64,000 nt of DNA from contig MTMG01000013.1 in assembly GCA_002010075.1 (NCBI GenBank), positions 72,796 to 136,795 on the forward strand, given 5' to 3'. The stretch comes from Methanomicrobia archaeon JdFR-19. Its GTDB lineage: Archaea; Halobacteriota; Methanosarcinia; DSM-18856; Methermicoccaceae. The stretch's first letter is position 1. Each line of letters begins with the position of its first letter. This document shows positions 31,095 through 60,393 of this stretch, piece by piece. The notes beneath the pieces are model-generated. The model had not been told where the DNA came from, searched no databases, and worked only from the letters and a program-made list of their open reading frames with translations. The position numbers were made by a program, and so were the translations under genes.

Positions 31095-31104
31095 GGTGGT
31101 TTGA

Positions 31105-31572: not shown

Positions 31573-31585
31573 TGGGGTGATGTGA

Positions 31586-32416: not shown

Positions 32417-32429
32417 TTGAGGTGTCTGG

Positions 32430-32780: not shown

Positions 32781-32794
32781 GGGGATGGGATGAT

Positions 32795-34506: not shown

Positions 34507-34510
34507 ATAA

Positions 34511-35077: not shown

Positions 35078-35081
35078 TAGC

Positions 35082-37024: not shown

Positions 37025-37135
37025 TTCTCATCCTCTCCCTATTCATGATTTCGAGTATTCGTGTGATTCTCACGAAGTCCTCCTCAGCCATCTCGTCTAT
37101 TTCAGAAGGAGTCCATCCGAACTCACGCATGAGCA

Positions 37136-38731: not shown

Positions 38732-39127
38732 TCAAACACCTCCTTCAATAAAATGAACTTTGAATTCCACAATCCTGCAATTCGGACTTTTCTCCCTGTT
38801 TGATGTGTTGGCTATGGTGTAGCCAAGTTCTGCACTCAGAAGAAGTTGCACAACAGAATCCGCCAGTTCATCCCTCTGTTTCACAGTGTTTGACCAGACC
38901 TTCACCTTTACATGGGCAACGAACTCACTGAGAACAAGTCCATCCTCGAGGTCTCTGTAGTGTTTGGTGTTCACAATTTCCCCTTCAACCGTTATCATGG
39001 GATACATCGGTTCATGGGAATGGTATGCTGTGAAGATCCACGAGTCTCCAGCCACATTCGGGTCATTGGGATTCGTAAGATTCTCTCTCAGGTAATCCCT
39101 TACCGTGAGTACAACATCCTCCAACAT
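38732..39127 (-). CDS. Hypothetical protein (virus-like region)
   Basis: 131 aa. Its TGA stop abuts the GTG start of the scaffold-like gene. Confidence 0.4.
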   Translation of the reverse strand: MLEDVVLTVRDYLRENLTNPNDPNVAGDSWIFTAYHSHEPMYPMITVEGEIVNTKHYRDLEDGLVLSEFVAHVKVKVWSNTVKQRDELADSVVQLLLSAELGYTIANTSNREKSPNCRIVEFKVHFIEGGV

Positions 39128-39214
39128 CCTGAATGAGGTTGGAGGAGGGATAGAAAATGCTAAATCAGAAAAGTTGAGGGGAATAAAAAGAGAGGATATT
39201 GTGTTAGACTCGCA

Positions 39215-39493
39215 TCATCTTATCTCAAACCTTTTCCTATCAAGCAGTTCCTGTTTCTTTGCCTCGTTCCAGCCACTCACATCTTGGAGATATCCCGTTA
39301 TCCGAGAAATGGGCAGGACGTTGTGCGAACCACATTCCGGACAGTAGAACTCACCACATACCGGACAGACATGTATCCCAGAAATGGGTTTCATGCACGA
39401 ACCATGCTCGCGGGCATACTCCCTGACGGGGCAGTTGTCAGGCGTGTATTTAAACTCACTCTTGATAGCCTTCTCAATGACTTCTTGAAGCAT
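39215..39493 (-). CDS. Stand-alone NrdD-like C-terminal domain: zinc ribbon plus glycyl-radical motif
   Basis: CPVCGEFYCPECGSH ... SRITGYLQDVSGWNEAKKQELLDRKRF parallels the class III RNR C-terminus (CxxC...CxxC, RV(C/T)GY(L/S), WN.GK..E..DR) in only 92 aa. Confidence 0.6.
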   Translation of the reverse strand: MLQEVIEKAIKSEFKYTPDNCPVREYAREHGSCMKPISGIHVCPVCGEFYCPECGSHNVLPISRITGYLQDVSGWNEAKKQELLDRKRFEIR

Positions 39494-39534
39494 GAAAGTG
39501 AATTGACTCCAATTCTACTTAAATGTTAGGATGT

Positions 39535-40614
39535 TTAAATATTAAGAGGGTCGAATCTCATTTCCACCCCCTCATCGTATCCCCATGCTCTCATCTGTGG
39601 GATGAGGACATCTCTCTCGAACACTCTTTTGATTTGGCGTTGCATCGACATCAGAACGTTCAGTCTGTCTTTCTCTGAAACGTAGGAAGATGCGTAGGTT
39701 GAGCCTCTTGCCTTTCCGGTTGTAATCTCTGACTGGAGGAGAGCTATTGCGATGTCTCTTTCCAAGCTCTCCTTGAGTCCGAGAATGTCGGTTGCTCCTG
39801 TGGTTGGAGTCAAAGGCTTCACCTCGAATCCCACCCCCACAATGTCCTCGTTCTGTTCAAGCTTCTGCATCTCCTCTTTCACATCGTCCAGCACTTTCTT
39901 TATCTCCTCGAATCTTCCTTCGTGCAGAAGTGGTTCAAGAGCCTTCATATCGATGTGAAGCCTTCCCATTCCGTATCTTCTGACAGCTTTTGTGAATCCT
40001 TCGAGCAAATCGAGTTTGTACTTCACGATTCTGTCTATGGGGTCGAGGAGTGAGATACCATACAGACCAAGGGTAGTTCTTCCCATGATATCTGTGCATA
40101 CATTCCCCTCTGGAAAGAGGCGAAATAGTGCGAACTCGTCTCTGTTGAATACTGTGGGGACAGACTCCTCCTGAACAACCACTCTGTCCACCTTACCCTT
40201 CAGAACGTGTGTGGGAATCTCTTTCGGTCTCACTCCTTTGGGGAGGAGAGTGATGTACCTCATGGGGAGTGGAGTGAGTGAGGAAATAGTATCACCATCC
40301 CATTCGAGGTGGAGAACAACGGTTCCATCACGGGCAAGCAGTCTGGCAACTGTTGCAATCACGTGGTCGAGATTCACTCCCACAGCCCACTTTTCAAGCT
40401 CCTTCACACCACCACAGAACTCGAAGCCACTTGAGATTGTGAGACCCAGTTTCAGAAGTGAGGTTGCAACATAGGGGTCGATCTGGGAGAGCTGTTCGTA
40501 TCTGATGAAGCGGTTGGATGTGTCAAGGTAGAAGTTCCCCACTTTGTAGTCGTCCGGTGTGATTCTGGGTATTGCCGACAAAGAAGCCTGAATTCTTTTC
40601 TTTCTGAAGAACAT
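39535..40614 (-). CDS. Portal-like protein candidate (virus-like region)
   Basis: 359 aa. The evidence is weak: its size and its position at the head of a scaffold/capsid-like array. Confidence 0.35.
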   Translation of the reverse strand: MFFRKKRIQASLSAIPRITPDDYKVGNFYLDTSNRFIRYEQLSQIDPYVATSLLKLGLTISSGFEFCGGVKELEKWAVGVNLDHVIATVARLLARDGTVVLHLEWDGDTISSLTPLPMRYITLLPKGVRPKEIPTHVLKGKVDRVVVQEESVPTVFNRDEFALFRLFPEGNVCTDIMGRTTLGLYGISLLDPIDRIVKYKLDLLEGFTKAVRRYGMGRLHIDMKALEPLLHEGRFEEIKKVLDDVKEEMQKLEQNEDIVGVGFEVKPLTPTTGATDILGLKESLERDIAIALLQSEITTGKARGSTYASSYVSEKDRLNVLMSMQRQIKRVFERDVLIPQMRAWGYDEGVEMRFDPLNI

Positions 40615-40652: not shown

Positions 40653-41816
40653 TTATTTATATTTTCTCAGAACATCCTTCAACTCCCTCAGAAACTCTTC
40701 CACCGTTCTTTCAGAAACGTGGGGCATCATGACCATTCTTATTGCCTCACCCACAGTCGAGACATACCAGTTCCTTCTCATCAGCTCATTCTTCACATCC
40801 TCCGCCCTATCACATCTCACACACAGCACATTGCACACCGGCTCTATGACCGGCTCGAGTCCGAGCTCCTCACATCCCTCTTTCATGAGATGGGTTATAC
40901 GCATGCACTCCTTCACGATTTTCGTGTAACCATCCCATCCGAGATGTCTCATCACCGCATACGCACCCACAACAGAACCACCAGTTCTCGTTCCGGTGAG
41001 TGTGTATTGAGAGCGGTGGGTGAGGTAGGGGGTATCGACCGCCAGCCTATCCATCACGTTCTCTCTGAAAACAAGCACACCGCACGGAATGGTTGAGAAT
41101 CCCATCTTGTGTGGGTCTATCGAAACTGAACTGACACCCTTCACAAAACCCCAGTCTCTCCTTCCAAGAAATGGAAGGACAAATCCACCAAACGCAGCAT
41201 CCACATGCAGAAATATTCCTCTCTCCTCTGCAATCTTCCCCAACTCCTCGATTGGGTCAACCTGTCCGTACTCTGTTGTACATGCGATGCCAACTATTGC
41301 AAACGTGTTATCATCCACCAGACCCTCCACCTCTCCAACATCCACCTTCAAATCCTCATTGAGCGGAGCCTTCCTGACCTCAACACCCAAAAGGTCTGAA
41401 ATTTTATCAAAAGAGAAATGGGCACTCTCAGGAACCACAATATTTCCTTTTTCACCTTCGCTTCCTTTTTTATTTTCTTTCTTTGCAACCCTCATCGCCT
41501 GTATGTTGGATTCTGTTCCTCCAGTGGTTGCAAATCCCCATGTCTTCGAGTTGCCAGCAAGCTCCCCAACCCTCTTCACAACACACCCTTCTATCTATGA
41601 GGAAGCGGGAAACAGCCCCGGGTCTCCAAGGTTCGATTCCATGTAGAGGATGTGGGCTCTCACAGCAACCGGATGGGGTAAGGTGCACATCGAAGAAAGA
41701 ATTCTGGTGTAGGAGATGTCCCTCTCCTTCATCAGCGAAAGCACATACAACACGCTCTCATCTTTTTCGCCCTCTATGTTCCACACCTTCACACCTCCAA
41801 AAGCTCTGCTTCGCAC
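40653..41816 (-). CDS. mfnA: PLP-dependent L-tyrosine/L-aspartate decarboxylase (MfnA family), with an in-frame TAG at 41595..41597
   Basis: Track ORFs 41595..41816 (N-terminus ...SSMCTLPHP...NLGDPGLFPASS) and 40653..41579 (...TTGGTESNIQAM...SIDPHKMG with the PLP lysine) share a frame and are joined through TAG ATA GAA GGG TGT GTT GTG. Both halves align to MfnA. The N-terminal start is uncertain and overlaps the upstream gene. Confidence 0.8.
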
Positions 41817-42424
41817 CTCTCAAAATCAACAACAGCACCCATCCCCATGTAAAGGGGACCCGGATTGACAATCAGAGTTCCCGTGCGATGTTCCACTCCT
41901 CTTGCCTCGTGTATGTGTCCGCACAGAATCACATCCACCTTCCCCACCGCCCCCTATATCGCCTTCGAGCCAACGTGCTCTCCCCTCGCCACATCACACA
42001 CTCCATAGGGTGGTGCATGACTCACGAGACACGTTGTACGGCTCTCATCCCGAATCTTAGAGAGCAGTTCTTCCAGCATGTATCTGATTGAGTCCTCACT
42101 CATCTCGAACGGAGTCGAAAATGGAGTGGGATTCGAGCCACCGATTCCCATGAACAGCACGTCCCCCATCTCGACCACCCTCCTGTGCAGGGGGATTGCT
42201 CCCTCCTCCTCAAGTGCTTGGTGAATTTCTGGCGGGTCACAGTTCCCACCAACTCCAATCACTTTCCTGCCCTTCAGAATCTCCATCATGTGCTTCACAT
42301 GTGTGAGGGGACCGAAGTTCGTGATGTCTCCGCACATCACAACCACATCCACCCCCACCCTTTCAACCACTTCTCTCATTTTCTCGTATCTTCCATGTGC
42401 ATCAGACAAGACGAGTGCTCTCAT
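41789..42424 (-). CDS. Metallophosphoesterase (MJ0936/YfcE-like), with an in-frame TAG at 41954..41956
   Basis: Track ORF 41954..42424 (MRALVLSDAHGRYEKM...VVMCGDITNFG...GGNCD) stops at TAG. The same frame continues GAVGKVDVILCGHIHEARGVEHRTGTLIVNPGPLY... (the GHxH and NPGS motifs) to a TGA at about 41789. Confidence 0.75.
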
Positions 42425-48968: not shown

Positions 48969-49519
48969 ATGATGAGGCTAAAAAACAGAGCAGAGATGCT
49001 TAACAGATTGGCATCAGACCCGAAGAACAAGCCGGACGAAATCATAAGAAGGATGGGCTTGAAGGAGGGGCAGGTAATAGCAGATGTAGGCGCCGGAGGT
49101 GGTTATTTCTCAGTGAGATTTTCAGAGGTGGTGGGAGAGAAAGGCAGGGTTTATGCGGTCGATACGAATCCCAAGTTCTTGGAGCACATACAGATGATGG
49201 CAGGGAAGAACAACATCACCAATCTCATCACCGTCCTCGCAACCGAGGACAGATTCAGTCTGCCAGAAAAAGTGGATTTTGTGTTCATGCGCAATGTTAC
49301 ACACCACATCAAAAACAGAGTGGAGTATTTCAAGAGGTTGAGAGAGGTTCTGAAACCAAATGGAAGAGTTGTCATAATAGATTACGAGAAATCGTTATTC
49401 CGCAGAATTTTCGGGCATTATGTGCCTAAGAACACCATAATAATGGAGATGAGATAGGCGGGATACAGGTTGAATGAGGAGTTCGACATTCTACCAAAAC
49501 AGCACTTCACCGTCTACAC
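48969..49519 (+). CDS. Class I SAM-dependent methyltransferase, with an in-frame TAG at 49455..49457
   Basis: Motif I VIADVGAGGGYFS. After the TAG the frame continues AGYRLNEEFDILPKQHFTVYT to a TGA, which is the usual (e)aGF...v.....hf C-terminal strand of these methyltransferases. Confidence 0.75.
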
Positions 49520-49863
49520 TTGACATAGTTCTCTTTCTTACCGCACCTCAAACACTCTCTTTCCACATCCACCACATTAGAAGACGCGTATATGGTGTAT
49601 CTCTCCTTCCATTTGTGCAGTCCAAATTTGCATAGAATGCCCAACATCATGATAAACCATTATGATTAATGATATAAAAAAGAATTGGGGGTATCCCGAA
49701 GGACACCCAATCGTTTCACGCTTTCTTGATGAAGTTCTTGGCAAAGGTTCTCGCCTGATAGAGTGCAATCAAGCTCAGCACCCAAATCAGGATGAAAGCC
49801 ACGTAGTCAATGCCCGCAGCTCTCCACACACCTTCCAATCCAAAGCCCCACATTCATATCACC

Positions 49864-50187
49864 TCACAACATGCACACCTGCTGTGCGCGTTCTCTTCCG
49901 AAGTCCTCTATCTGGTACTTGTAGAGAACTGCGCCCTCTCCGAAGTAAGTCCCGTCATCCACTTTCTGCTCGACACTCGATGTGAGACCACCTGATGCGA
50001 GCTCTATCAGGAGCAGTTTAACCTGTGATTTCCAGTAGTCTCCACTGATTCCGTACTCTTTGCTTATGGTTTCCCAGAGCTCGTAGTCCCACATAGCACC
50101 TTTCTCATCGAGTAATTGAAGTACTCTGCATTTAATCGGCATTTCAGTTGGGTTTTTTGTTCTGGCAGCCATTTCACACCACCTCAC
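49864..50187 (-). CDS. Small winged-helix-like protein (PadR-like?)
   Basis: 107 aa. Weak resemblance to PadR-type wHTH. Confidence 0.35.
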   Translation of the reverse strand: MRWCEMAARTKNPTEMPIKCRVLQLLDEKGAMWDYELWETISKEYGISGDYWKSQVKLLLIELASGGLTSSVEQKVDDGTYFGEGAVLYKYQIEDFGRERAQQVCML

Positions 50188-51260
50188 ATCTCCCTCGTTG
50201 TTTCCTCAACGACAGCACCTTCCCAGTAGTACATTATGAACGTACCAATCACTGCGACTATGACACCCAAGATGAGCCACCAGGCTGGGACGCCACCGAG
50301 GAAGAGTATCACGAATATCACTGCGAGCGGTCCATAAAGGGCTGCGATTGCCTGTCCTCTGCCCACACCGATCAGTGGGAAGGACTTGTACCATGAAACA
50401 TAACAGAATGCGAATGTTATACCAGCTGCCACAAGCCAGACTTGGGCATCTGCATTAGCGGTCGCTGACAAGAGTGGATAGATATTCCATCCGAACAGTG
50501 CAGCTGTGAGTGGGCATATTATGATGATCCAGTAGAAGACCTCGCCCATGAAACGCACTGTTATCCCAATGTCTGGGTCTGAAACATCCAGCGCCCTAGC
50601 AGCGACTGCTCCCTCGATACCCCATCCGAGGAATGCCATTGCACCTCCGAGGTATCCGAGGAACAGCACTTCAGGAGCCGCCGGATTCTGCAGTTGCGCA
50701 ATCATGTCCAGCGGGTTGAATATCAGTATGCCACCGAGAATAATAAGGACTATACCGAGGTATGTTCTCGGAGAAATCCTCTCCTTATACCACAGTTTAG
50801 CAATAGTTGCACCAACAACAGGATACACAAGAGCTGCTGCTGCAGCAAAGGCACCACCGATAATACCCATTGCCATAAACGAACCAAATATAGCTATTGG
50901 ACCACCGCATATTGCTCCAAGCCAGAACCACTTCGAGATGTTTGTGAAGTTTCGCAGTGTCCTTATCAACTCACCAAACTTACCGAGCACACCAACCCAT
51001 ACCAGAAGGAAAATCAGAACCCACACAGCGTTGAACGTCGTTATTACGACAGCTGCAGCCAAGAACTCGCCCAGCGGGTCGGTTCCCGGAAAGAGTGGTG
51101 GAGCCCATTCTCCATATGGGGGGGCATACCATACGACTGTCCCTGGGATGTACCACAATCCCCAGAGAATTGCACACCATAATGCCCAAATAAAACCCCA
51201 TTTAACTTTTACTTTTTGTTCGGCTTTTATTGCTTCAGCCAAACTCGTTACAGCACCCAT
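50184..51260 (-). CDS. Polytopic membrane protein (DMT/EamA-like transporter candidate)
   Basis: 358 aa, about 10 TM helices, Trp/Gly-rich. Confidence 0.55.
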   Translation of the reverse strand: MGAVTSLAEAIKAEQKVKVKWGFIWALWCAILWGLWYIPGTVVWYAPPYGEWAPPLFPGTDPLGEFLAAAVVITTFNAVWVLIFLLVWVGVLGKFGELIRTLRNFTNISKWFWLGAICGGPIAIFGSFMAMGIIGGAFAAAAALVYPVVGATIAKLWYKERISPRTYLGIVLIILGGILIFNPLDMIAQLQNPAAPEVLFLGYLGGAMAFLGWGIEGAVAARALDVSDPDIGITVRFMGEVFYWIIIICPLTAALFGWNIYPLLSATANADAQVWLVAAGITFAFCYVSWYKSFPLIGVGRGQAIAALYGPLAVIFVILFLGGVPAWWLILGVIVAVIGTFIMYYWEGAVVEETTREM

Positions 51261-51312
51261 ATCATCACCTCATTACAAATTTTTGGGGAGAAAAAATGAA
51301 AAAAACTCCCCT

Positions 51313-51957
51313 TTACTCTGCACCTACAAGTTTCTTAGCAATTCTTACGGCGTCGAGAGCATTCTCGGCGTAAGCATCAGCACCAATCTTGTCAGCCCAT
51401 TCTTGGGTTATGGGAGCGCCTCCCACCATCACCTTGACCTTGTCCTTGATGCCAACCTTCTCAAGCTCCTCTACGACTGCACGCTGGTTGAGCATTGTTG
51501 TTGTCATGAGTGCGGATGCCCCTACGATGTCTGCGTTCAGTTCCTTTGCCTTGTTGGCGAACTCCACATTGGGGACATCCCTTCCGAGGTCATGAACATC
51601 GAACCCCGCAATGCTGAGCATGGTTGCGACGATGTCCTTACCGATCGTGTGAATGTCTCCCTCAACTGTTCCAATCAAGTACACTCCTATGGATTCTCCT
51701 GCCTTTGCTCCCTTCAGAACTGGCTCAACCACAGCAACAGCAGCCTTCATGGCTTCAGATGCTGCCATCACGTGAGGTAGGAAAACCTCGCCCTTGTCGA
51801 ACTTATCACCAATCTCACGCATAGCAGCGGTCATGCCCTCAATGAGTTCCACAGGGTCAACACCCGCATCGAGTGCTTCCTGTGCCGCCTTTACAGCCTC
51901 GTCTTTCTTGTAGTTTTTGATTGCATCCTGAACTTTCTGTATAAGCTCGCTTGACAT
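51313..51957 (-). CDS. mttC: Methylamine-specific corrinoid protein (B12-binding, MttC family)
   Basis: 214 aa with the cobalamin-binding DxHxxG motif (GDIHTIGKDIV) and the corrinoid-protein N-terminal helical cap. Confidence 0.85.
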   Translation of the reverse strand: MSSELIQKVQDAIKNYKKDEAVKAAQEALDAGVDPVELIEGMTAAMREIGDKFDKGEVFLPHVMAASEAMKAAVAVVEPVLKGAKAGESIGVYLIGTVEGDIHTIGKDIVATMLSIAGFDVHDLGRDVPNVEFANKAKELNADIVGASALMTTTMLNQRAVVEELEKVGIKDKVKVMVGGAPITQEWADKIGADAYAENALDAVRIAKKLVGAE

Positions 51958-51963
51958 TAAAAA

Positions 51964-53478
51964 TCACCTCCCTTCTAATGCCGCCTTATCGGCCCTCTTC
52001 ATAACCTCTTCCATGTCCTTCAGCACATCGCTGTCTATCGGAGCGACCTCATGCGTCTTGAGAATCTCATCGACCTTATCGCGTGCTGCCTGTGCAAGGT
52101 CCTTTCCGCCAAGGGACTGCCATGTCCCTCTCATGTTCCTGTCGATCAAGGTTGGGTTGGACTGAATGTTGATGAGGTCTCTTGTCTCATCCAGAGCCAA
52201 GAAGTCTCCGCCCGCTCCAACTGACTTGATGGAGTCTACAGCGAGTGTTGTCTCGTTCACTTCGATTCCCTCAACGACCATCCTTGCCATTCCAATGATA
52301 TCGTTGTCGATGACTATCTGCTCAGAGCTGACAGTCATACCAAGCTCGAGCATACCTGCTCCGTATATGCTGTTCGCACCTGCAAGTGCGGGTACGAGTG
52401 TTGTGATTGTCTTCTCATGACCTGCCTGTGCATCTGGGAGTTTGGAGTCGGTCTAAGTTCCAGCCACGTAGCTTGGCAAGTTGTAATACTGAGCCAGCTG
52501 TGCCACTGCTGCACTGATAAGTGCAAGCTCAGGCGAACCAACTGGTGCGGTTCCCTTTCTCAGGTCGAAAGCTGTTGTGGAGCTTCCATACCACACAGGA
52601 GCACCAGGGTTTGCAAGCTGGGACAGGACTATACCTGCCAAAACCTCAGCGTTGTGTGTCACGAGAGTGCCTGCAACATGCACCGGAGATGTCGCTCCTG
52701 CCATTGCCATGCTCAAAACGTTCACTGGCATCTCGTACTTTGCACCATATATTATGACCTTCACAGCGTTCTCGTGGAGTTGTAGTGGGCTTGTTGGACA
52801 GAGAAGCAACGAGAGTATTGGTCTCTTCCTTGCCAGCTCCTCATCTCCACCATAGAACGCCTTTACTACTTCCCAGTATGTGTCGATGCTGGTACCGACA
52901 GGGTCAATGTGCTGGAAGTGTTTGCTCGTACCCTTCAAGGATGCCATCAGTTCGTGTACGTCCTGCGCACCCTTGTCAGACCAGTCTCTTGCAGAGACCG
53001 TCAGGGAGAAGTAGTCAATGTTATCACACCAGTCTGTGACTATTGCGGTGTCGATGATGTCCTGCTCAACTGAGTCCCTGACAACCGGCTTGCCATCTTT
53101 GAATTCGAATACCTGTACACCGGTACCGAAGGTTGTCCAGTATACTTTGCCTCCTGCCTCCTGAATGAGGTCGTTCTCCTTGGTTCTGCCTGCCAGTAAG
53201 AATCTTGATGGGGCAGTCTGCAAAGCCTTCCTCACGACCCACTCAGGAATCTTCACCATCTGTGTCTCGTTGTCTACTTCACAGCCGTTTTCCTCGAACA
53301 CTTTTCTACCGAGTTCATCTGTGACGAGAACGCCTGTGTCTGTGAATACGTCCATGGTAGCTTGGTGTATCTCTCTTAATTCGCTCTTAGAGAAGAGTTT
53401 TAACCCAGCTCCATGAAGCTTCTCAACGCCTGCTTCTACATATTTTCTCATGTTTATCACGTAGGAAGTGTATGCCAT
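51964..53478 (-). CDS. mttB: Trimethylamine:corrinoid methyltransferase MttB, with in-frame TAG (pyrrolysine position) at 52453..52455
   Basis: Track ORFs 52453..53478 and 51964..52353 are in frame. The joined protein reads ...[55 protein letters not shown]... and is collinear with Methanosarcina MttB across about 500 aa. The TAG sits at the canonical Pyl site. Confidence 0.9.
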
Positions 53479-53630
53479 TACATCTAAATAAGTCTTACTA
53501 AAAAACCGAATAAATCAAAATAAATTGAATAAATTATAAAAAAATTTGAGTTTTGAACTGAAAATAGGACGCAGTCTTGTCACTTCATTTTCCACCATAC
53601 ATATATATTTCACAATGATAAATCAAAATC
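53479..53630. promoter_or_regulatory. AT-rich divergent promoter region upstream of mttBC (minus) and a membrane-protein gene (plus)
   Basis: About 150 nt of A/T tracts between divergent starts (aaataaattgaataaattataaaaaaattt). Confidence 0.3.
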
Positions 53631-54140
53631 ATGGATAGACGGATAAAAGTTGTCCTGCCCATAGCTCTCGCAGTCATTTTCGTGGTAATTCAGTCCCGCG
53701 AAATATATCCACTCATGGTAGTTTATTTCTTCCCACCGCTCGGGAAGGAGTCTGTCATCCCCACTGCGGTAGCCCTTGGATTCGGGCCACTTCACACCGC
53801 TCTCACCTTCACCACCATGGACGCCCTCACCTCCCTCTTCATCATATGGAACTTCGACCTTGTGTGCAGACTCAAGGTGATTGGAGACATCATAGCACGG
53901 GTGATGGTGAAGGCTATTAACATCCTCTCCCGCCGTCCATGGATATGGAGGTTTGCCTACATTGGAATATTCGTAGTTGTTTTTATCCCGTTTCAGGGAA
54001 GCGGTGCTGTGACCGCATCCGTACTGGGAAAACTGCTCGGTCTAAAACCCGAATACCTGTGGGTTGTCATAGTTCTAGCATCTTTTTTGAGCTCGATAAC
54101 GATTGCATTCTCCACAAGAATCGCCATACACCTTCTTTAA
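53631..54140 (+). CDS. Small polytopic membrane protein, unknown function
   Basis: 169 aa with about 4-5 TM helices. Confidence 0.5.
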   Translation: MDRRIKVVLPIALAVIFVVIQSREIYPLMVVYFFPPLGKESVIPTAVALGFGPLHTALTFTTMDALTSLFIIWNFDLVCRLKVIGDIIARVMVKAINILSRRPWIWRFAYIGIFVVVFIPFQGSGAVTASVLGKLLGLKPEYLWVVIVLASFLSSITIAFSTRIAIHLL

Positions 54141-56401
54141 GGAGGTGTTTCCAGCCACGGTTTGTAATCCACATTCCCGACAGCCCTTGATGCCCGTGGA
54201 GATGGACCCTTCGGCGAGCCCCACCAGTTGTATTCCGCATTCACTTTCTGTGGTGTTATTCCCCACACTCCAACGCTCGTGTTTCCGAAGTCGTTGTAGT
54301 GGAGTTCACACCCATGCCTCTTGAATATGAGGGCTCCTGAGAATCCTTCGTAGCGGTTATGGACCACGTATGCGAACGGAGTACCAACATCCCCGATTAC
54401 GACTGTCCCGAACTTTGTGGACTGGATGAAGTTGTTGGATATTTCGGTCTGTGCGTTCCTCCATACGGTTATTCCGAGTTTTGTGTCCAGAGAGTTGTTT
54501 TGTATGTGGCAATTCGTGAGTCTCTCTTCTGTGAGACCCGCAATCACAATCCCACTGTTCGCAGATATTTCATTGTCCCTTATTGAGTTGTTGAAGGCTC
54601 TCGATTCTGGGACAGACTGCACCACCACACCCATCTTTGCATCCACCCTGTTTCCAACCACATTGTTCTCGACTCCTGTCACCACCACACCTATATCACC
54701 CGATATCGTGTTCCCCACAACGATATTGTGGTCTGGGAGGTTGTAGAAACCGGGAGGCTCAACAGCACCACTCTTGTTTGTGAAGTATGGGCGTGTTATT
54801 CCGAGTTCGTACATGAGTACAAGCTGTTCTTTCAAGTCCTTTTTCAGTCCCTTAACCTTGATCTTCTTCATCTTCAAGTTCAGCAACTTCACATTTGACC
54901 AGAAGGTTGTGTTCGTGACAACCACACCGAACTTTGCAGATATGGAGTTATTCTGGATGATGGAAGAGGTTGTGTTGTATGCTACGATGCCATACAGACC
55001 TTGGAGGGTGTTGTTTGTGATGCGGGTCGAATCCGAAAAGGCGAGCAAGAGCCCCTCACTACCGGTGTTGTTCTCAAATAGTCCATGGTCATCGAAGCTC
55101 ACCTGATAGGAATATATTCTGCACGAGCTGGCTATGTTGTCCCTCACGACTATGCCACTGCTAACTCTTGTCCATATAGTGAAATTGTTCTCGTATCCGG
55201 TGTTGTTCTCGATGAAGACGTTGTTTAGGTAGGCACCATATATGCCAGAGTGTGTGTCGTTGAACACAGTGTTGTGTCTTACGAACGAATTCGAGACAGT
55301 GTCCATGTGTATCCCGTACGGGCATGAGTGGATGGTGTTGTGGGTGAGGGTCAGGTTGGTGGAATGGACTTCCGCAATTATTCCGTGTTTTTCACACGAT
55401 TGTATGGTGGTGTTCGAGACGGTGGAGTCGTTTACCGTGTAGAGCAGTACACCATACTTCCCTCCATCTATTGTTGAGTCCAAGAGGCTGAGGTATGATG
55501 AGTCTCTTGCGTATACAGGGATTGTTGTTGAGGATGAGGTGAGATTGAATACACGGGAGTGTGAAGAATACTGGACACACACACCGAACTCGCAATCAGT
55601 GGTCGAGATGTTTGAAATCTGCGAGTTCTCGGACAGATACACATAAACACCCTAAGAGCAGTTGGTTGCAGAGATGGATTCAGCTCTCACACCATCCGAA
55701 TCCAGCAGATAAAGTCCTATGTTCAGACCCTCGAACGAGATGTTCGAAAGAGTGGATGAAGAGTTGCGCAGTATCACACCACTCTGCTCTCCTGTGAGGA
55801 GTGCATCCTCGATTTCCCCATTCACGTTGTACAGATAGATGGGAGATGTTTTTCCATATACGGTGGTGTTGTGCATCGAGAAAAAGCCGTTATCCGTGGC
55901 GAACACATCACTTTGAAGTAAGCAGTCCTTTACCCACACCCGAGAGGATATGGGTCTGATCGAGTATCTGGAGGTGGATATTGTGGTGTTGGATACATTC
56001 ACCTCAGAGTTCATTATGACCATGCCATCGGTGGAGTTGATGATGTTGCACCCTTCTATGCTCACGTTGGTGCGTAACGGGTCTGAGTAGTATCCAACGA
56101 GTATTGCGGTTCCGTCTGTATCAACGGTGAGGTTGGCAAGTGTGATGTTCGATGCTTTTATCCAGATGTAGTCTTCAAGTGTGCAACCGAGTGTGCCACC
56201 TATGATGGAGACTTCCTTTCCAATGTTGAGGGTTTCGTTGTATGTTCCGTTCACAACTATCGTGTCCCCATCACTCGCATTTGTGAGCGCCTGAGATAGG
56301 GTGGGATAGTCCTCAGGAACATGGATTACACTTGCATTTGCTCCCGCGGTTGTTATGAATATGAACAACACGATTAGAGGCAATTTCATACTCAATTTCA
56401 T
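54137..56401 (-). CDS. Secreted right-handed parallel beta-helix repeat protein (NosD/pectate-lyase-like), with an in-frame TAG at 55652..55654
   Basis: Track ORFs 55652..56401 (signal peptide MKLSMKLPLIVLFIFITTAGANA plus beta-helix repeats) and 54137..55642 share a frame. They are joined via TAG GGT GTT TAT GTG TAT. The NxS/T-rich repeats continue across the junction. Confidence 0.7.
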
Positions 56402-56437: not shown

Positions 56438-56854
56438 TCACCATTTCACACTCTCGAGAATCACAGCAGGACAAATCCTATTCACTCCATCCATTCTCGC
56501 TATTTTTTTGTGGATTTCAGACAATTCGTCGAGCGAGAAGGCAACAACCTAACTCATGATTGTGTGGTCTCCTGATGTCAGCATCACAATCTTCACCTCT
56601 TCCATTTCCCTCAGCTTTCTGATCACATCCCAGAGATGTTCAGGACCGACATCTATGCCCGTGAGGGAGGCAAACAGATTTTTGTAGTTCAGCATTGCAT
56701 TGTATCCGAGTATCACACCCTCCTTTTCCAGTTTTGTTATCCTCTTCCTGACCGCAGTCTCACTCAGTCCAAGCATCTTCGCTATCTTCGTCTTGGGGGT
56801 TCTTGCATCTCTCAGCAACATCGAAATGATTTTTCTGTCTCTTTCATCCATCAT
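56438..56854 (-). CDS. lrp: Lrp/AsnC-family transcriptional regulator, with an in-frame TAG at 56549..56551
   Basis: N-terminal HTH (KIISMLLRDARTPKTKIAKMLGLSETAVRKRITKLEKEGVI). After the TAG, the RAM domain continues VVAFSLDELSEIHKKIARMDGVNRICPAVILESVKW to a TGA. The TAG aligns with the conserved Lys of the GDYDLLLKVVA segment. Confidence 0.8.
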
Positions 56855-56951: not shown

Positions 56952-57617
56952 ATGTGTGAAAGAATGGAAGAAATGGCTGGGGAGAGGTTTCCCCTGATTG
57001 GGGAGACATTTCCATCAATGGAAGTGCAAACAACCCATGGTGTGATGAATCTGCCAGACGACTACAAAGGAAAATGGCTCGTATTTTTCAGTCATCCTGC
57101 TGATTTTACACCCGTATGCACGACTGAGTTCGTTGCGTTTCAGAAGAGATACGACAAATTCAGGGAACTGAACTGTGAGTTGATAGGGCTGAGCATTGAC
57201 CAGGTGTTCTCTCACATAAAATGGGTAGAGTGGATAAATGAGAAATTGGGGATTGAGATCGAGTTTCCAGTGATAGCGGATGACACAGGTATTGTGTCCA
57301 AAAAGCTGGGCCTCATACATCCGGGCAAGGGAACGAACACTGTGAGGGCGGTGTTCATAGTTGACCCTCAGGGTGTGATAAGAGCGATTCTTTACTATCC
57401 GCAAGAGCTTGGAAGGAACATGGACGAGATTTTGAGGATGGTGAGAGGTCTGCAGATTGTTGATGGGGAAGGAGTTGCAATGCCTGCAAACTGGCCCGAG
57501 AATGAGCTGGTGGGCGACAGTGTAATCATACCACCCGCGAAGACAGTGGAGGATGCGAAGAGGAGATTGGAAGAATACGAGAACTACGACTGGTGGTTCT
57601 GTTACAGGAAGTTGTGA
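56952..57617 (+). CDS. prx: Peroxiredoxin (AhpC/TSA family)
   Basis: Peroxidatic cysteine motif FTPVCTTE. 221 aa. Confidence 0.85.
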
Positions 57618-57648
57618 TATGAGGTTGTGAGAGAGGGAAAAGGGAGGT

Positions 57649-58086
57649 GTGAGAATGACTGAGTTGAATGAGATGTACAGGTGTGAGGTGTGCGGGAACA
57701 TCTTGGAGGTTGTGCATGCTGGGAAATGTGTGCCTGTGTGCTGTGAACAACCCATGAAACTGCTTGAGCCAAAGACAGAGGATGCGGGGAAGGAGAAGCA
57801 TGTTCCGGTTGTGGAGTATGGGAAGAAGTTGGTCGTCAAGGTTGGGAGTGTTCCGCACCCGATGGAAGAGAACCATTACATTGAATGGATAGAGGTGATT
57901 ACAGACGATGCGGTTTACAGAAAGCACCTCAAACCAGGTGATGAGCCAAAGGCTGAGTTCGAGATTCCGGCTGTTAAGAAGGTGAAAGGACCGAGATGCT
58001 GTCCCATGTCGCCCGCAGTCCGCAGGGTGCCAGATGTGAAGGCGGTGAGGGAATACTGTAATGTTCATGGGTTGTGGAGGGCATGA
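57649..58086 (+). CDS. dfx: Desulfoferrodoxin-type superoxide reductase
   Basis: N-terminal desulforedoxin CEVCGN...C..C, centre II EKHVP, C-terminal YCNVHGLW. Confidence 0.8.
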
Positions 58087-59267
58087 AGCCAGAGCCGGTT
58101 GAGATAGCGAAGGGCATATACTGGGTTGGGGCTGTGGACTGGGAGGAGAGAGATTTCCATGGCTTCAGAATCGAAAGAGGTTCGAGCTATAATGCCTATC
58201 TCGTGGTGGATGAGAAGATAACGCTCGTGGATACCGTGAAGCAGAGGTTCTTCCACGAGATGATTGAGAGGGTTTCTCAGGTGGTTGAGCCATCTGAAAT
58301 AGATTACATCGTATCGAACCATGTTGAGACAGACCACTCCGGCGCACTTGCAGATGTAAAGGAACTGACAGATGCAACTGTGATATGTACAGAGAAAGGA
58401 AAGAAGGGACTGTGCAAGCACTTTGACTGTTCAGAGTGGGAGATGAAGGTGGTGAAGACCGGGGACGAACTCTCCATAGGCAGGAGAACTCTCATGTTCG
58501 TCGAGACCCCAATGCTTCACTGGCCAGATAATATGGTGACGTATGTGAAGGAGGACAAAATACTTATGTCGAATGATGCGTTTGGACAGCATTTTGCGAG
58601 TGTGGAGAGGTATGATGAAGAGGTTGGTGTGGACGAGGCGGTAAGGTGGGCGAAGCTGTATTATGCAAACATACTGATGCCGTTTGGGGAGTTAGTCAAG
58701 AGGAAACTGGAGGAGCTTTCCACCATCGAAATCGAAATGATAGCTCCGAGCCATGGGGTGATATGGAAGAACCCGCAGAGGATACTGGAAGCTTATTCGA
58801 AGTGGGCGAGCTTCGTGAGCGAGAGGAAATTGGTCGTGGTGTACGATACGATGTGGGAGAGTACATCCCGAATAGCGAAGGCGATTGCAGAGGGTGCAGG
58901 CTCGGAGGGTGTTGATGTGAGAGTGTTCCGTGTGAGAAACGATGACATCAGCGACATCATGGCTGAGATACTGGATGCGGGTGGTGTTGCTATCGGCTCA
59001 TCAACGATGCACAACACCTTCCTTCCTTCGGTTTCATCCTTCCTTACCTCATTGCAGGGACTGAGACCCAAGGGGAAATTGGGTGTTGCCTTTGGTTCTT
59101 ATGGATGGAGTGGGGGGGCGGTGAAACAAATCACAGAGGTGCTTGAGAAACTCAGGTTCGATGTGCTTCCACCACTCCAAATAAGGTACAGACCCACGGA
59201 TGAGGAACTGAGGAAAGCGTTCGACCTCGGTGTTAATATGGCAGAAAAGATTAAGGAGAGAGTATGA
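58074..59267 (+). CDS. fprA: Flavodiiron protein (FprA; F420H2/rubredoxin:O2 or NO oxidoreductase)
   Basis: Metallo-beta-lactamase-like diiron domain (HVETDH) plus C-terminal flavodoxin domain. 397 aa. Confidence 0.85.
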
Positions 59268-59842
59268 TAGTTGGCATATGCGGAAGTCCGAGAAAAAAGG
59301 CGACTGAGTATGTTCTGACAAAGGCACTTGAGATGATTGAGGAAAGAGGGTTTGAGACCCACCTCTACACAGTAAGGGGAAAGAACATAGGTTTCTGTCA
59401 GCATTGTGATTACTGTTTGAAGAACAAGGAGTGCAGAATAAAGGACGATATGTATGAACTTTATGAGAAATTGAGAGAGGCTAATGGGATTGTGATGGCG
59501 ACTCCAGTTTACAACGGCGGAGTGAGTGGGCAGATAAAAGCAGTAATGGACAGGTGCAGGGCGCTGGTTGCATCAGACTACAACTTCTTCCGTGGGAAGG
59601 TAGGGATGGCGATAGCTGTTGGAGGGGACAGAATAGGCGGGCAAGAACTCGCCCTCCAGCAGATAATCACATTCTACATCCTGAACGGAATCGTGCCGGT
59701 GAGTGGTGGCTCCTTTGGTGCGAACCTCGGTGCAACGTTCTGGTCGAAAGACACGCTGGAGGGCGTGGAAGGGGATGAAGAAGGGTTCAGAACACTCAGA
59801 AAGACTGTAAGGAAGTTTGCCGAATATTTATCAGAGGAATGA
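59264..59842 (+). CDS. isf: Iron-sulfur flavoprotein / NADPH-dependent FMN reductase family (Isf-like)
   Basis: 192 aa. Flavodoxin-like fold with a compact Cys motif (CQHCDYCLKNKEC). Confidence 0.7.
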   Translation: MIVGICGSPRKKATEYVLTKALEMIEERGFETHLYTVRGKNIGFCQHCDYCLKNKECRIKDDMYELYEKLREANGIVMATPVYNGGVSGQIKAVMDRCRALVASDYNFFRGKVGMAIAVGGDRIGGQELALQQIITFYILNGIVPVSGGSFGANLGATFWSKDTLEGVEGDEEGFRTLRKTVRKFAEYLSEE

Positions 59843-60393
59843 TTATGAAGAGTGTTGCGTGGGGAATCACAGGAAGCGGAGACAGGATTGTGGAGACGTA
59901 CGAGGTGATGAGTGGGATAAAGAAGGAATACGAAGATGTTGAGGTCAGGGTTTATCTGAGCAGGGCGGGGGAGCAGGTGGTGAAGTACTATAGACTTACG
60001 GACAAGCTGAAGAACGATTTCGACAGAGTGTATGTGGAAATAAATGCAAACTCACCTTTCCTCGCAGGGCAGTTGCAGATCGGCAGGTTTGAGTTCCTTC
60101 TGATAGCTCCCGCAACCTCCAACACGGTTGCAAAGATTTCGATGGGGGTGGCTGACTCTCTCCTCTCCAACTCAGCAATCATGGCCATGAAGGCTTTTGT
60201 CCCGGTTTATCTCATGCCATCTGACATAGTTGAGGGGATTGTGGAGACCATACTACCCAGTGGAAAAAAGATGAAGCTGAGAATCAGGAGAGAGGATGTT
60301 GAGCATGTGAAGAGGCTTTCACAGATGGACGGAATGTTCATACTCGAAAAGCCTGAGGACATCTGGGGAGTGTTTGAAAAGCACTTCAGATGA
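59839..60393 (+). CDS. afpA: Archaeal flavoprotein AfpA-like (HFCD/PPC-decarboxylase-fold flavoprotein)
   Basis: 184 aa. Translationally coupled to the Isf-like gene, as in described AfpA-partner pairs. Confidence 0.6.
   Translation: MIMKSVAWGITGSGDRIVETYEVMSGIKKEYEDVEVRVYLSRAGEQVVKYYRLTDKLKNDFDRVYVEINANSPFLAGQLQIGRFEFLLIAPATSNTVAKISMGVADSLLSNSAIMAMKAFVPVYLMPSDIVEGIVETILPSGKKMKLRIRREDVEHVKRLSQMDGMFILEKPEDIWGVFEKHFR

What the first reader, a model, noticed from the sequence alone, without database searches (positions are those of the whole stretch)
51313..53478. Intact trimethylamine methyltransferase system (mttB with Pyl-site TAG, plus corrinoid protein mttC) in a window with no other methanogenesis genes
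The joined MttB is collinear with Methanosarcina MttB. The TAG sits in the ...SYVAG(S/T)-O-(S/T)D(A/S)K(V/L)PD(D/A)QAGHEK... block, which is the pyrrolysine site. A DxHxxG corrinoid protein lies immediately downstream. The order is mttB then mttC, the reverse of the Methanosarcina mttCB order. This is direct evidence for Pyl decoding machinery in this organism. It also anchors the interpretation of the other eight TAGs.
Basis: partly seen in the sequence, partly recalled or inferred. Interest (0 to 1): 0.7.

Follow-up and report, generated by a model that had tools for sequence, protein, structure and literature searches.

The report
Pyrrolysine trimethylamine methyltransferase gene cluster
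This is a genuine, intact trimethylamine methyltransferase gene whose in-frame TAG sits exactly at the pyrrolysine site, followed by its corrinoid partner and a trimethylamine transporter, in a deep-subsurface archaeon that appears to read every TAG as an amino acid; all of this has already been described.

Summary
On the minus strand, mttB (53478..51964, 504 codons) has one in-frame TAG at 52455..52453. That TAG falls in the Pyl334 column of the crystallised Methanosarcina barkeri MttB. The gene scores 698 bits on the Pyl-type equivalog TIGR02369 (cutoff 525). The catalytic residues G110-T111, M249, Y364 and G372 are all conserved, and the 161 codons after the TAG are under purifying selection. 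mttC (51957..51313) follows, with the DxHxxG/SxL/GG motifs.

mttB-then-mttC is the Methanosarcina order, not its reverse. The cluster also runs beyond the given coordinates into mttP, mttQ and mttS (51260..49716), matching the M. mazei mttB-mttC-mttP-mttQ-mttS operon.

The eight other TAGs are real. Seven interrupt Pfam or NCBIfam domain matches. None of 54 confident genes ends in TAG (42 TGA, 12 TAA).

The sequence is identical to contigs from Juan de Fuca Ridge crustal fluid. Its LysRS is closest to Methermicoccaceae. It fits the published "Code 34" outlier JdFR-19, although the GC values differ (46.9 vs 43.2%).

Verdict: real, ordinary for its family, already described; low novelty.

The parts
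51964..53478 (-). mttB, Pyl-type trimethylamine:corrinoid methyltransferase. It has 504 codons including one in-frame TAG, and a TGA stop at 51964-51966. An alternative start at M10 (53451) would give the usual 332 residues before Pyl.
   Evidence: TIGR02369 at 697.7 bits (cutoff 525) and PF06253 at 297 bits. PDB 7xcl at 696 bits, ungapped over 485 aa. G118-T119, M257, Y372 and G380 correspond to M. barkeri G110-T111, M249, Y364 and G372. Most listed homologues are called as 331-334 aa fragments ending at the same TAG.
52453..52455 (-). UAG codon 342 of mttB, the pyrrolysine codon (equivalent to Pyl334 of M. barkeri MttB).
   Evidence: It aligns to X in 7xcl and to K in the 7xcm variant. TAG occupies the same column in L004-L010. 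The 161 downstream codons stay in frame at 68% aa identity to JdFR-18, with 68 synonymous against 51 non-synonymous codon differences.
52356..52455 (-). Match to Rfam PYLIS_3 (RF02510), starting at the UAG. This is probably conserved coding sequence rather than a required RNA structure.
   Evidence: 89.9 bits against a gathering score of 38. However, 4 model pairs are non-canonical here, and the fold is no better than shuffles (z = -1.32, 24 of 200 shuffles fold at least as well).
51313..51957 (-). mttC, the cognate corrinoid (B12-binding) protein, 214 aa. Its start lies 6 nt after the mttB stop and is preceded by GGAGGTGA.
   Evidence: TIGR02370 at 254 bits (cutoff 215), PF02607 plus PF02310. 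DIHTIG at 101-106, SAL at 148-150, GG at 179-180. 65% identical to the JdFR-18 MttC and 59% to the Methanohalobium MttC.
51285..51311 (-). Hairpin GGGGAG-(15 nt T-rich loop)-CTCCCC in the 52-nt mttC-mttP spacer. It may be a partial terminator or attenuator (inference only).
   Evidence: Read directly from the sequence. Not tested.
50184..51260 (-). mttP, a DMT/EamA-family permease (358 aa), the predicted trimethylamine transporter core.
   Evidence: PF00892. 51% identical to the gene at the same position after mttC in Methanohalobium (L005) and 44% in Methanomassiliicoccales (L006). 48-51% identical to EamA/DMT transporters of Methanosarcina, Methanolobus and Methanomethylovorans. The function of M. 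mazei MttP is described in bioRxiv 10.64898/2025.12.02.691841.
49864..50187 (-). mttQ candidate, a small soluble subunit (107 aa; 102 aa if it starts at 50172). It overlaps the mttP stop by 4 nt.
   Evidence: 39-44% identical to the ORFs directly after mttP in L005 and L006, and 29% in L007. No Pfam or NCBIfam family matches. Its position and size match M. mazei MttQ.
49716..49853 (-). mttS candidate, a 45-aa single-helix membrane peptide.
   Evidence: It sits 10 nt after mttQ. The conserved C-terminal motif IALYQARTFAK compares with IALWQARVFAK in the syntenic small ORFs of L005 and L006. Its size and position match M. mazei MttS, 49 aa. The BLAST E-value alone is weak (0.007).
49689..49708 (-). 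Terminator-like GC hairpin 8 nt after the mttS stop. It probably marks the 3' end of the cluster.
   Evidence: The number of such sites in the region is not above shuffles, so only its position is suggestive.
53479..53630 (.). AT-rich divergent intergenic region upstream of mttB, containing TTTTTATAAT. It is the presumed archaeal promoter region (inference).
   Evidence: Sequence read. Not tested.

Best explanation
The region is a functional five-gene trimethylamine (TMA) uptake and demethylation cluster, mttB-mttC-mttP-mttQ-mttS, on the minus strand (53478..49716).

How it works, by homology with the Methanosarcina system:
- MttPQS imports TMA.
- MttB is a TIM-barrel enzyme whose UAG-encoded pyrrolysine (codon 342) binds and activates TMA through its imine.
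- MttB transfers one methyl group to the Co(I) corrinoid held by MttC, whose lower ligand is His103 of the DxHxxG motif.
- Methyl-MttC is then demethylated by an MT2 enzyme (MtbA) encoded elsewhere.

The UAG is translated, not terminated. The organism is a Methermicoccaceae-related archaeon from Juan de Fuca Ridge crustal fluid, most likely the published MAG JdFR-19 or its population. It uses TAG as a pyrrolysine sense codon throughout the genome ('Genetic Code 34'), so no local recoding signal is needed.

Shown here: the gene identities, the position of the TAG, conservation of the catalytic residues, selection on the post-TAG codons, the gene order, and the window-wide TAG pattern.

Inferred: Pyl insertion itself, TMA transport, the downstream methyl acceptor, and the identity of the organism.
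For: - MttB: TIGR02369 at 697.7 bits against a cutoff of 525. Ungapped 485-aa alignment to the M. barkeri MttB structure with the TAG on Pyl334. G110-T111, M249, Y364 and G372, named as catalytic or corrinoid-contact residues in PMC9842639, are all conserved.
- TAG column: shared by 7 Pyl-type loci and replaced by ordinary residues in 7 non-Pyl homologues.
- Post-TAG segment: in frame, 56-68% identical to four archaeal MttBs, with synonymous differences exceeding non-synonymous ones against the closest.
- Assemblies: three independent assemblies carry the identical sequence.
- MttC: TIGR02370 above cutoff, with the full B12 motif set.
- mttP/Q/S: homologues sit at the same positions in Methanohalobium and Methanomassiliicoccales loci. 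The order matches the M. mazei operon, where MttPQS was shown to transport TMA.
- Genome-wide reading: 54 confident genes end in TGA (42) or TAA (12) and none in TAG. There are 9 in-frame TAGs, and TAG is the rarest codon (9 of 17,857). Single domain matches span the TAG in DHQS-II, GatA, ARMT1-like, MfnA, a metallophosphoesterase, an Lrp/AsnC regulator and a NosD/beta-helix protein.
- Source: the window is 100% identical to a contig from SRR3723048, a Juan de Fuca Ridge flank crustal-fluid metagenome. LysRS is closest to Methermicoccaceae and Methermicoccus shengliensis at 57-59%.
- Literature: Kivenson et al. describe JdFR-19 (Methermicoccaceae, same site) as a fully recoded genome with 13% TAG-containing genes and 191 predicted Pyl proteins. 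Guo et al. report PylSn+PylSc in JdFR-19.
Against: - No pylT, pylS or pylBCD, and no mtbA, ramA or mcr, lie in the window. Pyl decoding and the fate of the methyl group are therefore inferred.
- The published GC of JdFR-19 is 43.2% and the window is 46.9%, so identity with that MAG is not proven.
- In M. acetivorans, UAG was shown experimentally to be read both as stop and as Pyl (PMC12626013). 'TAG is never a stop' is therefore a genomic inference, and some truncated 341-aa MttB may be made.
- The MttS assignment rests on a short motif plus synteny (E = 0.007).
- One of the nine TAGs (SAM-methyltransferase, 49455-49457) gives only a 21-aa extension that no domain model covers. That TAG could in principle be a stop.
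Confidence: 0.88

Rival explanations
1. Ambiguous decoding. UAG keeps a dual meaning (stop and Pyl) in this organism, as shown for Methanosarcina acetivorans. mttB would then yield both a truncated 341-aa product and full-length enzyme, in a ratio set by the supply of Pyl-tRNA(Pyl). TAG would not be a dedicated sense codon.
For: PMC12626013 shows dual reading of UAG in M. acetivorans and finds no conditional suppression mechanism. Kivenson et al. note that a release factor recognising TAG is present in all near-complete Pyl archaeal genomes they examined. The 21-aa extension after the TAG of the methyltransferase at 48969-49523 is covered by no domain model.
Against: None of 54 confident genes terminates at TAG. 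Eight TAGs interrupt domain matches, including housekeeping genes such as GatA and 3-dehydroquinate synthase II. Substantial termination there would be costly. The window's TAG pattern matches the genomes Kivenson et al. class as fully recoded.
Confidence: 0.25
2. Same enzymes, different pathway. The organism is not a methylotrophic methanogen. Instead it feeds the TMA-derived methyl group into the H4MPT/Wood-Ljungdahl pathway, as proposed for the MCR-lacking Hydrothermarchaeota JdFR-18.
For: The window has no mcr, mtr or mtbA. The second-closest MttB (74%) belongs to JdFR-18, for which a non-methanogenic use of methylamines was proposed (PMC6946796). JdFR-19 was reported to lack HemBCD (PMC8351635).
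Against: LysRS places the organism with Methermicoccaceae, a family of methylotrophic methanogens. Kivenson et al. state that the code transition occurred only in methanogens and include JdFR-19. The MttPQS cluster is of the methanogen type. A 64-kb window cannot show that mcr is absent.
Confidence: 0.12
3. Relic or pseudogene. The TAG is a nonsense mutation in a decaying mttB, and only a 341-aa fragment, or nothing, is made.
For: Standard-code gene callers split the gene into 341-aa and 129-aa pieces.
Against: The TAG is exactly at the conserved Pyl column. The downstream 161 codons have no frameshift or stop, are 68% identical to the closest genome-derived homologue (JdFR-18), and show an excess of synonymous change. 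The catalytic Y372 and G380 lie after the TAG and are conserved. mttC and mttPQS are intact. There is no second mttB copy in the window.
Confidence: 0.02
4. TAG is reassigned to a standard amino acid (for example Gln, Leu or Trp via a suppressor tRNA) rather than to pyrrolysine.
For: The eight non-methyltransferase TAGs do not by themselves say which amino acid is inserted. No pyl gene lies in the window.
Against: The MttB TAG occupies the catalytic Pyl position of an equivalog-level Pyl-type MttB. Non-Pyl relatives that carry ordinary residues there are a different, much more distant subfamily at 30-40% identity. Pyl machinery is published for the matching MAG. No tRNA with a CUA anticodon was found in the window.
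Confidence: 0.02

Closest known systems
Methanosarcina barkeri / M. mazei MttB-MttC (PDB 7xcl, 7xcm, 7xcn; operon MM_1687-MM_1693)
   Same: Same fold family (PF06253) and Pyl equivalog (TIGR02369). Ungapped alignment with UAG at Pyl334. G110-T111, M249, Y364 and G372 are conserved. MttC has the His-on DxHxxG motif. The gene order mttB-mttC-mttP-mttQ-mttS is the same.
   Different: No flanking mtbC or mtbB (dimethylamine) genes in the cluster. The ORF has an 8-residue N-terminal extension unless M10 is the true start. In the protein search, Methanosarcinales MttBs (Methanimicrococcus, Methanosalsum, Methanohalophilus) are 59-62% identical to the N-terminal part. The host is a Methermicoccaceae-related thermophilic subsurface lineage.
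MttB/MttC of Ca. Hydrothermarchaeum profundi JdFR-18 (locus L004) and 'Euryarchaeota archaeon 55_53'
   Same: These are the closest sequences: 81% (55_53) and 74% (JdFR-18) for the MttB N-terminal part, and 65% for MttC. The TAG is in the same column. JdFR-18 comes from the same crustal-fluid site.
   Different: In JdFR-18, mttC lies upstream of mttB and no mttP is found within 10 kb. GC is 39% against 47%. There is no synteny outside the two genes.
Genetic Code 34 archaea (Kivenson et al., bioRxiv 10.1101/2024.09.30.615893), especially Methermicoccaceae MAG JdFR-19
   Same: TAG occurs only inside genes and never as a terminator in the window. 9 of 54 genes (17%) contain TAG, against 13% reported for JdFR-19. 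Same sampling site and same family-level affiliation.
   Different: GC is 46.9% in the window against 43.2% published for the MAG. Only 64 kb was examined. There are no proteomic data for this lineage.
Non-Pyl MttB superfamily (MtgB glycine betaine methyltransferase, PDB 2qne / 9yce)
   Same: Same PF06253 TIM barrel, and a corrinoid partner of the same family.
   Different: Only about 211 bits against 696 bits for true MttB. These proteins have Leu or another ordinary residue at the Pyl column and no TAG. The window's gene is not of this type.

Membership tests
Pyl-dependent trimethylamine:corrinoid methyltransferase MttB (TIGR02369 / PF06253) | Scores above the curated equivalog cutoff over the full length | tested here: met
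   697.7 bits against a cutoff of 525, model positions 2-469 of 469. PF06253 at 297 bits.
Pyl-dependent trimethylamine:corrinoid methyltransferase MttB (TIGR02369 / PF06253) | Single in-frame UAG at the column of Pyl334 of M. barkeri MttB | tested here: met
   The TAG at 52455..52453 aligns to X334 of 7xcl. Same column as the TAG in L004-L010.
Pyl-dependent trimethylamine:corrinoid methyltransferase MttB (TIGR02369 / PF06253) | Conserved active-site residues Gly110-Thr111, Met249, Tyr364 and Gly372 (PMC9842639) | tested here: met
   G118-T119, M257, Y372 and G380.
Pyl-dependent trimethylamine:corrinoid methyltransferase MttB (TIGR02369 / PF06253) | Sequence downstream of the UAG is translated (intact frame under purifying selection) | tested here: met
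   161 aligned codons, 56-68% aa identity, 68 synonymous against 51 non-synonymous differences versus JdFR-18.
Pyl-dependent trimethylamine:corrinoid methyltransferase MttB (TIGR02369 / PF06253) | Genome encodes pylT and pylSBCD | not testable with these tools
   None found in the 64-kb window (Pfam survey). Published for JdFR-19, if that is the source.
Pyl-dependent trimethylamine:corrinoid methyltransferase MttB (TIGR02369 / PF06253) | TMA-dependent methylation of the cognate corrinoid protein | not testable with these tools
   This is a biochemical assay.
Methylamine-methyltransferase cognate corrinoid protein (TIGR02370; MttC) | B12-binding_2 cap plus B12-binding Rossmann domain, above the subfamily cutoff | tested here: met
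   254.1 bits against a cutoff of 215.3. PF02607 at 74.7 bits and PF02310 at 98 bits.
Methylamine-methyltransferase cognate corrinoid protein (TIGR02370; MttC) | DxHxxG...SxL...GG cobalamin-binding signature (His-on ligand) | tested here: met
   D101-I-H103-T-I-G106, S148-A-L150, G179-G180.
Methylamine-methyltransferase cognate corrinoid protein (TIGR02370; MttC) | Specificity for MttB rather than MtbB or MtmB | tested here: inconclusive
   Adjacency to mttB and 59-65% identity to mttB-adjacent homologues support MttC. However, the MtbC equivalog model scores 250 bits, below its 350 cutoff, and there is no dedicated MttC model.
MttPQS trimethylamine transporter (M. mazei MM_1691, MM_1692, mttS) | DMT/DME-family permease encoded directly after mttC | tested here: met
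   PF00892. Syntenic homologues at 44-51% identity. 48-51% identity to Methanosarcinaceae EamA transporters of about 348 aa.
MttPQS trimethylamine transporter (M. mazei MM_1691, MM_1692, mttS) | Small soluble MttQ (about 98 aa) and single-helix MttS (about 49 aa) encoded directly after mttP | tested here: met
   ORFs of 107 aa and 45 aa at the expected positions, homologous to the syntenic ORFs in L005, L006 and L007. They were not compared directly with the M. mazei sequences, which were unavailable.
MttPQS trimethylamine transporter (M. mazei MM_1691, MM_1692, mttS) | TMA transport activity | not testable with these tools
   This needs an experimental assay. It was shown only for M. mazei.
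Genetic Code 34 (all TAG = Pyl) genome, 'Group C' of Kivenson et al. | Most TAGs are internal to homology-supported genes (Category 1), with few or no read-throughs causing long out-of-frame overlaps (Category 4) | tested here: met
   Within the window only: 8 of 9 TAGs lie inside domain matches, 1 gives a 21-aa extension, and none gives a long overlap. Terminators are 42 TGA, 12 TAA and 0 TAG.
Genetic Code 34 (all TAG = Pyl) genome, 'Group C' of Kivenson et al. | Proteomic detection of Pyl at TAG positions outside the methyltransferases | not testable with these tools
   No proteome exists for this uncultured lineage.
PYLIS recoding element (Rfam RF02510) | Stable, conserved stem-loop 3' of the UAG | tested here: not met
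   The Rfam score of 89.9 bits comes mainly from sequence. 4 model pairs are non-canonical, and the MFE z-score is -1.32. [quoted passage not shown]

The most novel reading that the evidence does not exclude
The window may not be from JdFR-19. It could belong to a second, undescribed Methermicoccaceae-related subsurface lineage (GC 47% against 43%) that has also fully reassigned TAG. Its Pyl-type mttBC genes would form a thermophile clade shared by lateral transfer with Hydrothermarchaeota (74%) and an oil-reservoir euryarchaeon (81%), paralleling the published PylSc/tRNA-Pyl affinity of JdFR-19 and JdFR-18. In that case the methylamine genes and the decoding machinery moved together between phyla in the crustal biosphere.
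Probability: 0.15. Interest if true: 0.4.

Novelty: already known. Interest (0 to 1): 0.22.

Why it matters
The finding is a correct call from raw sequence. It shows that the window must be translated with TAG as a sense codon. Otherwise at least nine genes, including gatA, aroB', mfnA and mttB, are split or truncated, as they are in the public gene calls.

It adds little biologically. Pyl in MttB has been textbook knowledge since 2000. The MttB-MttC structure and mechanism were published in 2023, the MttPQS transporter in 2025, and genome-wide TAG-to-Pyl recoding in this very lineage and site in 2024.

The modest additions are these:
- The full mttBCPQS cluster is present in this deep-subsurface lineage.
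- The cluster is of the Methanosarcina type in organisation but of the 'thermophile/Hydrothermarchaeota' type in sequence.
- The Rfam PYLIS_3 hit here is not supported as a structure.

Tried and rejected
1. Pseudogene or relic reading. Rejected on the position of the TAG, the intact and selected downstream frame, and conserved post-TAG catalytic residues.

2. Second mttB or mttC copy in the window. None found by tblastn.

3. PYLIS as a functional hairpin. The Rfam hit is strong, but the fold is not better than shuffles and several model pairs are broken. I treat it as coding-sequence conservation.

4. Synteny with Ca. Hydrothermarchaeum profundi as a way to place the organism. Only mttB and mttC match, with no conserved neighbourhood, so that taxonomic lead was dropped. 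LysRS homologues point to Methermicoccaceae instead.

5. Proving identity with JdFR-19. The supplementary tables of Kivenson et al. are not held. NCBI record names were not returned for the window's own proteins. The published GC differs by 3.7 points. This remains unresolved.

6. Bacterial-type promoter and terminator scan. Counts are not above shuffles. Only the hairpin just after mttS is positionally suggestive.

7. NCBIfam and Pfam give no family for MttQ or MttS. Their assignment rests on synteny and pairwise similarity.

Full report
**1. What is at 51313-53478**

Both genes are on the minus strand. Translating 53478..51961 gives 341 codons, a TAG, 162 more codons and a TGA stop. The TAG occupies window positions 52455..52453. 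Six nucleotides after the TGA, and preceded by GGAGGTGA, a 214-codon ORF runs from 51957 to 51313.

The joined 504-residue protein matches Pfam MTTB (PF06253) in a single stretch covering residues 26-496, at 297 bits. It matches the NCBIfam equivalog for the pyrrolysine-type enzyme, TIGR02369 'trimeth_pyl', at 697.7 bits against a curated cutoff of 525. The second ORF matches B12-binding_2 plus B12-binding and the subfamily model TIGR02370 'methyltransferase cognate corrinoid protein' at 254 bits against a cutoff of 215.

**2. Is the TAG at the pyrrolysine site?**

Yes. The protein aligns without a single gap over 485 residues to the crystallised Methanosarcina barkeri MttB (7xcl, 696 bits). 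The TAG falls on the 'X' that marks Pyl334. In the 7xcm variant that column is Lys, and in the non-Pyl glycine betaine methyltransferase MtgB (2qne) it is Leu.

I fetched 14 related genomic loci. The seven archaeal loci with 57-74% identity (Hydrothermarchaeum, Methanohalobium and Methanomassiliicoccales-group genomes) all have TAG in the same column. The seven distant homologues at 30-40% identity have Q, I, M, L, V or C there. In the large protein database, most of the listed close homologues are annotated as 331-334-residue fragments, that is, cut at the same codon by standard-code gene callers.

The residues that the structural paper names as essential or corrinoid-contacting are Gly110-Thr111, Met249, Tyr364 and Gly372 (PMC9842639). 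They correspond to G118-T119, M257, Y372 and G380 here. Two of these lie after the TAG.

Against four archaeal homologues, the 161 post-TAG codons align in frame at 56-68% identity. Against the closest of the four they show 68 synonymous and 51 non-synonymous codon differences. This is what a translated, selected sequence looks like.

The identical sequence, TAG included, occurs in three independent assemblies. The pseudogene and sequencing-error readings are therefore rejected.

**3. The corrinoid protein**

MttC has D101-I-H103-T-I-G106, S148-A-L150 and G179-G180, the classical His-on cobalamin signature. It is 65% and 59% identical to the corrinoid genes adjacent to mttB in JdFR-18 and Methanohalobium. 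There is no dedicated MttC model. The MtbC equivalog scores below its cutoff (250 against 350). Substrate pairing therefore rests on adjacency and on similarity to other mttB-adjacent copies.

**4. Gene order, and what lies just outside the given coordinates**

It is not. In M. mazei, one transcript carries mtbC (MM_1687), mttB (MM_1688), mttC (MM_1690), mttP (MM_1691), mttQ (MM_1692), mttS and mtbB (MM_1693). MttPQS was shown to import TMA (bioRxiv 10.64898/2025.12.02.691841).

In the window, mttC is followed by three more genes:
- A 358-residue EamA/DMT permease (51260..50184).
- A 107-residue ORF that overlaps the permease stop (50187..49864).
- A 45-residue single-helix ORF (49853..49716).

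All three have homologues at exactly the same positions downstream of mttB-mttC in the Methanohalobium and Methanomassiliicoccales loci. The permease is 51% and 44% identical. The MttQ-like ORF is 39% and 44% identical. The MttS-like ORF shares the motif IALYQARTFAK with IALWQARVFAK. The permease is also 48-51% identical to the roughly 348-residue EamA transporters of Methanosarcina, Methanolobus and Methanomethylovorans.

A GC hairpin sits 8 nt after the mttS stop. A GGGGAG/CTCCCC hairpin with a T-rich loop sits between mttC and mttP. Neither is tested.

The functional unit is therefore mttB-mttC-mttP-mttQ-mttS, spanning 53478..49716. The arrangement with mttC upstream of mttB is the one found in Ca. 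Hydrothermarchaeum profundi JdFR-18 (L004).

**5. The other TAGs and the genetic code**

I re-called ORFs with only TAA and TGA as stops and scanned them against Pfam and NCBIfam. Of 54 confidently identified genes, 42 end in TGA, 12 in TAA and none in TAG. Nine contain one in-frame TAG, and TAG is the rarest codon at 9 of 17,857.

Besides mttB, the TAG lies inside a single continuous domain match in seven genes:
- 3-dehydroquinate synthase II (TAG at 3576-3578).
- GatA (14669-14671).
- An ARMT1-like phosphatase (25437-25439).
- MfnA (41595-41597; TIGR03812 at 473 bits).
- A metallophosphoesterase (41954-41956).
- A NosD/beta-helix surface protein (55652-55654).
- An Lrp/AsnC regulator (56549-56551).

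The ninth TAG (SAM-methyltransferase, 49455-49457) gives a 21-residue extension that no model covers. No read-through creates a long out-of-frame overlap.

This is the pattern Kivenson et al. use to define genomes that have fully reassigned TAG to pyrrolysine, 'Genetic Code 34'.

**6. Does read-through need a local signal?**

Rfam reports PYLIS_3 (RF02510) starting at the UAG, at 89.9 bits. However, the model has few pairs, four of them are non-canonical here, and the segment folds no better than shuffled sequence (z = -1.32). The literature also holds that PYLIS is dispensable. I read the hit as conserved coding sequence. The alternative view, that UAG stays ambiguous and is tuned by Pyl supply as shown in M. 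acetivorans (PMC12626013), cannot be excluded and is kept as a rival for the decoding step.

**7. Whose genome is this?**

The window is 100% identical over 21 kb to a contig assembled from SRR3723048, a Juan de Fuca Ridge flank crustal-fluid metagenome (PMC6474303). Its proteins sit on an NCBI contig of 158,240 bp.

Its class I LysRS is closest, among named sequences, to Methermicoccaceae MAGs and Methermicoccus shengliensis at 57-59%. Its P-type ATPase falls in a 90%-identity cluster with a 'Methanosarcinales archaeon' protein.

From that same site, Methanomicrobia archaeon JdFR-19 was published as a Methanosarcinales-affiliated MAG. It carries split PylSn+PylSc. Kivenson et al. single it out as the Code 34 outlier, with 13% TAG-containing genes and 191 predicted Pyl proteins. 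The window's 17% (9 of 54) fits.

The one discrepancy is GC: 46.9% in the window against 43.2% in the MAG table. The same table's 39.1% for JdFR-18 agrees with 38.7% in L004. I therefore consider JdFR-19 or its population the likely source, but not a proven one.

**8. Relatives of the enzyme**

The nearest MttB sequences are 'Euryarchaeota archaeon 55_53' at 81% and JdFR-18 at 74%. The named Methanosarcinales MttBs are only 59-62% identical. Outside mttB and mttC there is no synteny with JdFR-18. This parallels the published finding that PylSc and tRNA-Pyl of JdFR-19 group with those of Ca. Hydrothermarchaeum. It hints at joint lateral transfer, but I did not test this phylogenetically.

**9. 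Context**

The window has no mcr, mtr, hdrABC, mtbA, ramA, other methylamine methyltransferase or pyl gene. The only methanogenesis-related gene is mfnA. The window cannot show whether the methyl group ends in methane or in the Wood-Ljungdahl pathway, as proposed for JdFR-18 in PMC6946796. The family-level affiliation and the literature favour methanogenesis.

**10. Verdict**

The gene-order comparison is wrong, and the unit is larger than stated. Everything found fits well-described systems: Pyl-MttB/MttC, MttPQS and Code 34. It very probably belongs to a genome in which these features are already published. Novelty is low. The practical value is that this window must be annotated with TAG as a sense codon.

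Noticed in passing
window 30585-40614: Phage-like genes lie on both strands: an XM1 gp53-like minor capsid protein (31105-31572, +), an HK97/encapsulin-type capsid (31586-32416, +), a tail tube protein (37552-38436, -) and a Mu-like portal (39535-40614, -). Several ORFs with no family match lie between them. None of these ORFs contains TAG, and all stop at TGA or TAA. This may be a provirus remnant or tailed-virus-derived element in a TAG-recoded host.
   Followed up: partly
window 40653-41816 (-), TAG at 41595-41597: Tyrosine decarboxylase MfnA (TIGR03812, 473 bits against a cutoff of 299) carries an in-frame TAG at codon 74. It is the only methanogen-cofactor gene in the window.
   Followed up: partly
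window 54137-56401 (-), TAG at 55652-55654: Two ORFs called separately in public data (249 aa and 501 aa) join through a TAG into one 754-residue secreted NosD/right-handed beta-helix protein. The Beta_helix and NosD domain matches span the TAG.
   Followed up: partly
window 26524-28329 (+): A fusion of a LutB/LldF-type LUD domain, a 4Fe-4S dicluster and a CCG (HdrD/TfrB-like) domain. This suggests lactate-type or heterodisulfide-type redox chemistry. All NCBIfam equivalog scores are below their cutoffs.
   Followed up: no
window 4076-4909 (+): A DUF7714 protein (253 bits) with a sub-threshold hit to the XcbA (coenzyme M-related) family, 73 bits against a cutoff of 150. It lies between 3-dehydroquinate synthase II and archaeosine tRNA-guanine transglycosylase.
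   Followed up: no
window 50184-51260 (mttP) versus database hits P0259, P0262, P0267 and others: Close homologues of the MttP-like permease (about 53% identity) are widespread in bacteria such as Aromatoleum, Pseudomonas and Roseovarius. Many of them are 455-467 aa long, which could be MttP-MttQ fusions like the one reported in Methanomassiliicoccus intestinalis.
   Followed up: no
L004 (Ca. Hydrothermarchaeum profundi JdFR-18) 9345-11476, versus the window: This window's MttB and MttC are closer to those of a different phylum from the same crustal fluid (74% and 65%) and to an oil-reservoir euryarchaeon (81%) than to the named Methanosarcinales MttBs (59-62%). JdFR-18 has the order mttC-mttB and no mttP nearby. 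This hints at lateral transfer among thermophilic subsurface archaea.
   Followed up: partly
window 56952-60393 (+): An oxidative-stress cluster: peroxiredoxin, desulfoferrodoxin, an FprA-like flavodiiron protein (424 bits to the flavorubredoxin model, below its cutoff), an FMN reductase and a flavoprotein. It lies next to the TAG-containing Lrp/AsnC regulator at 56438-56854.
   Followed up: no
window overall versus the published JdFR-19 statistics: Window GC is 46.9%, whereas the MAG that otherwise fits best (JdFR-19) is listed at 43.2%. The discrepancy is unexplained.
   Followed up: partly
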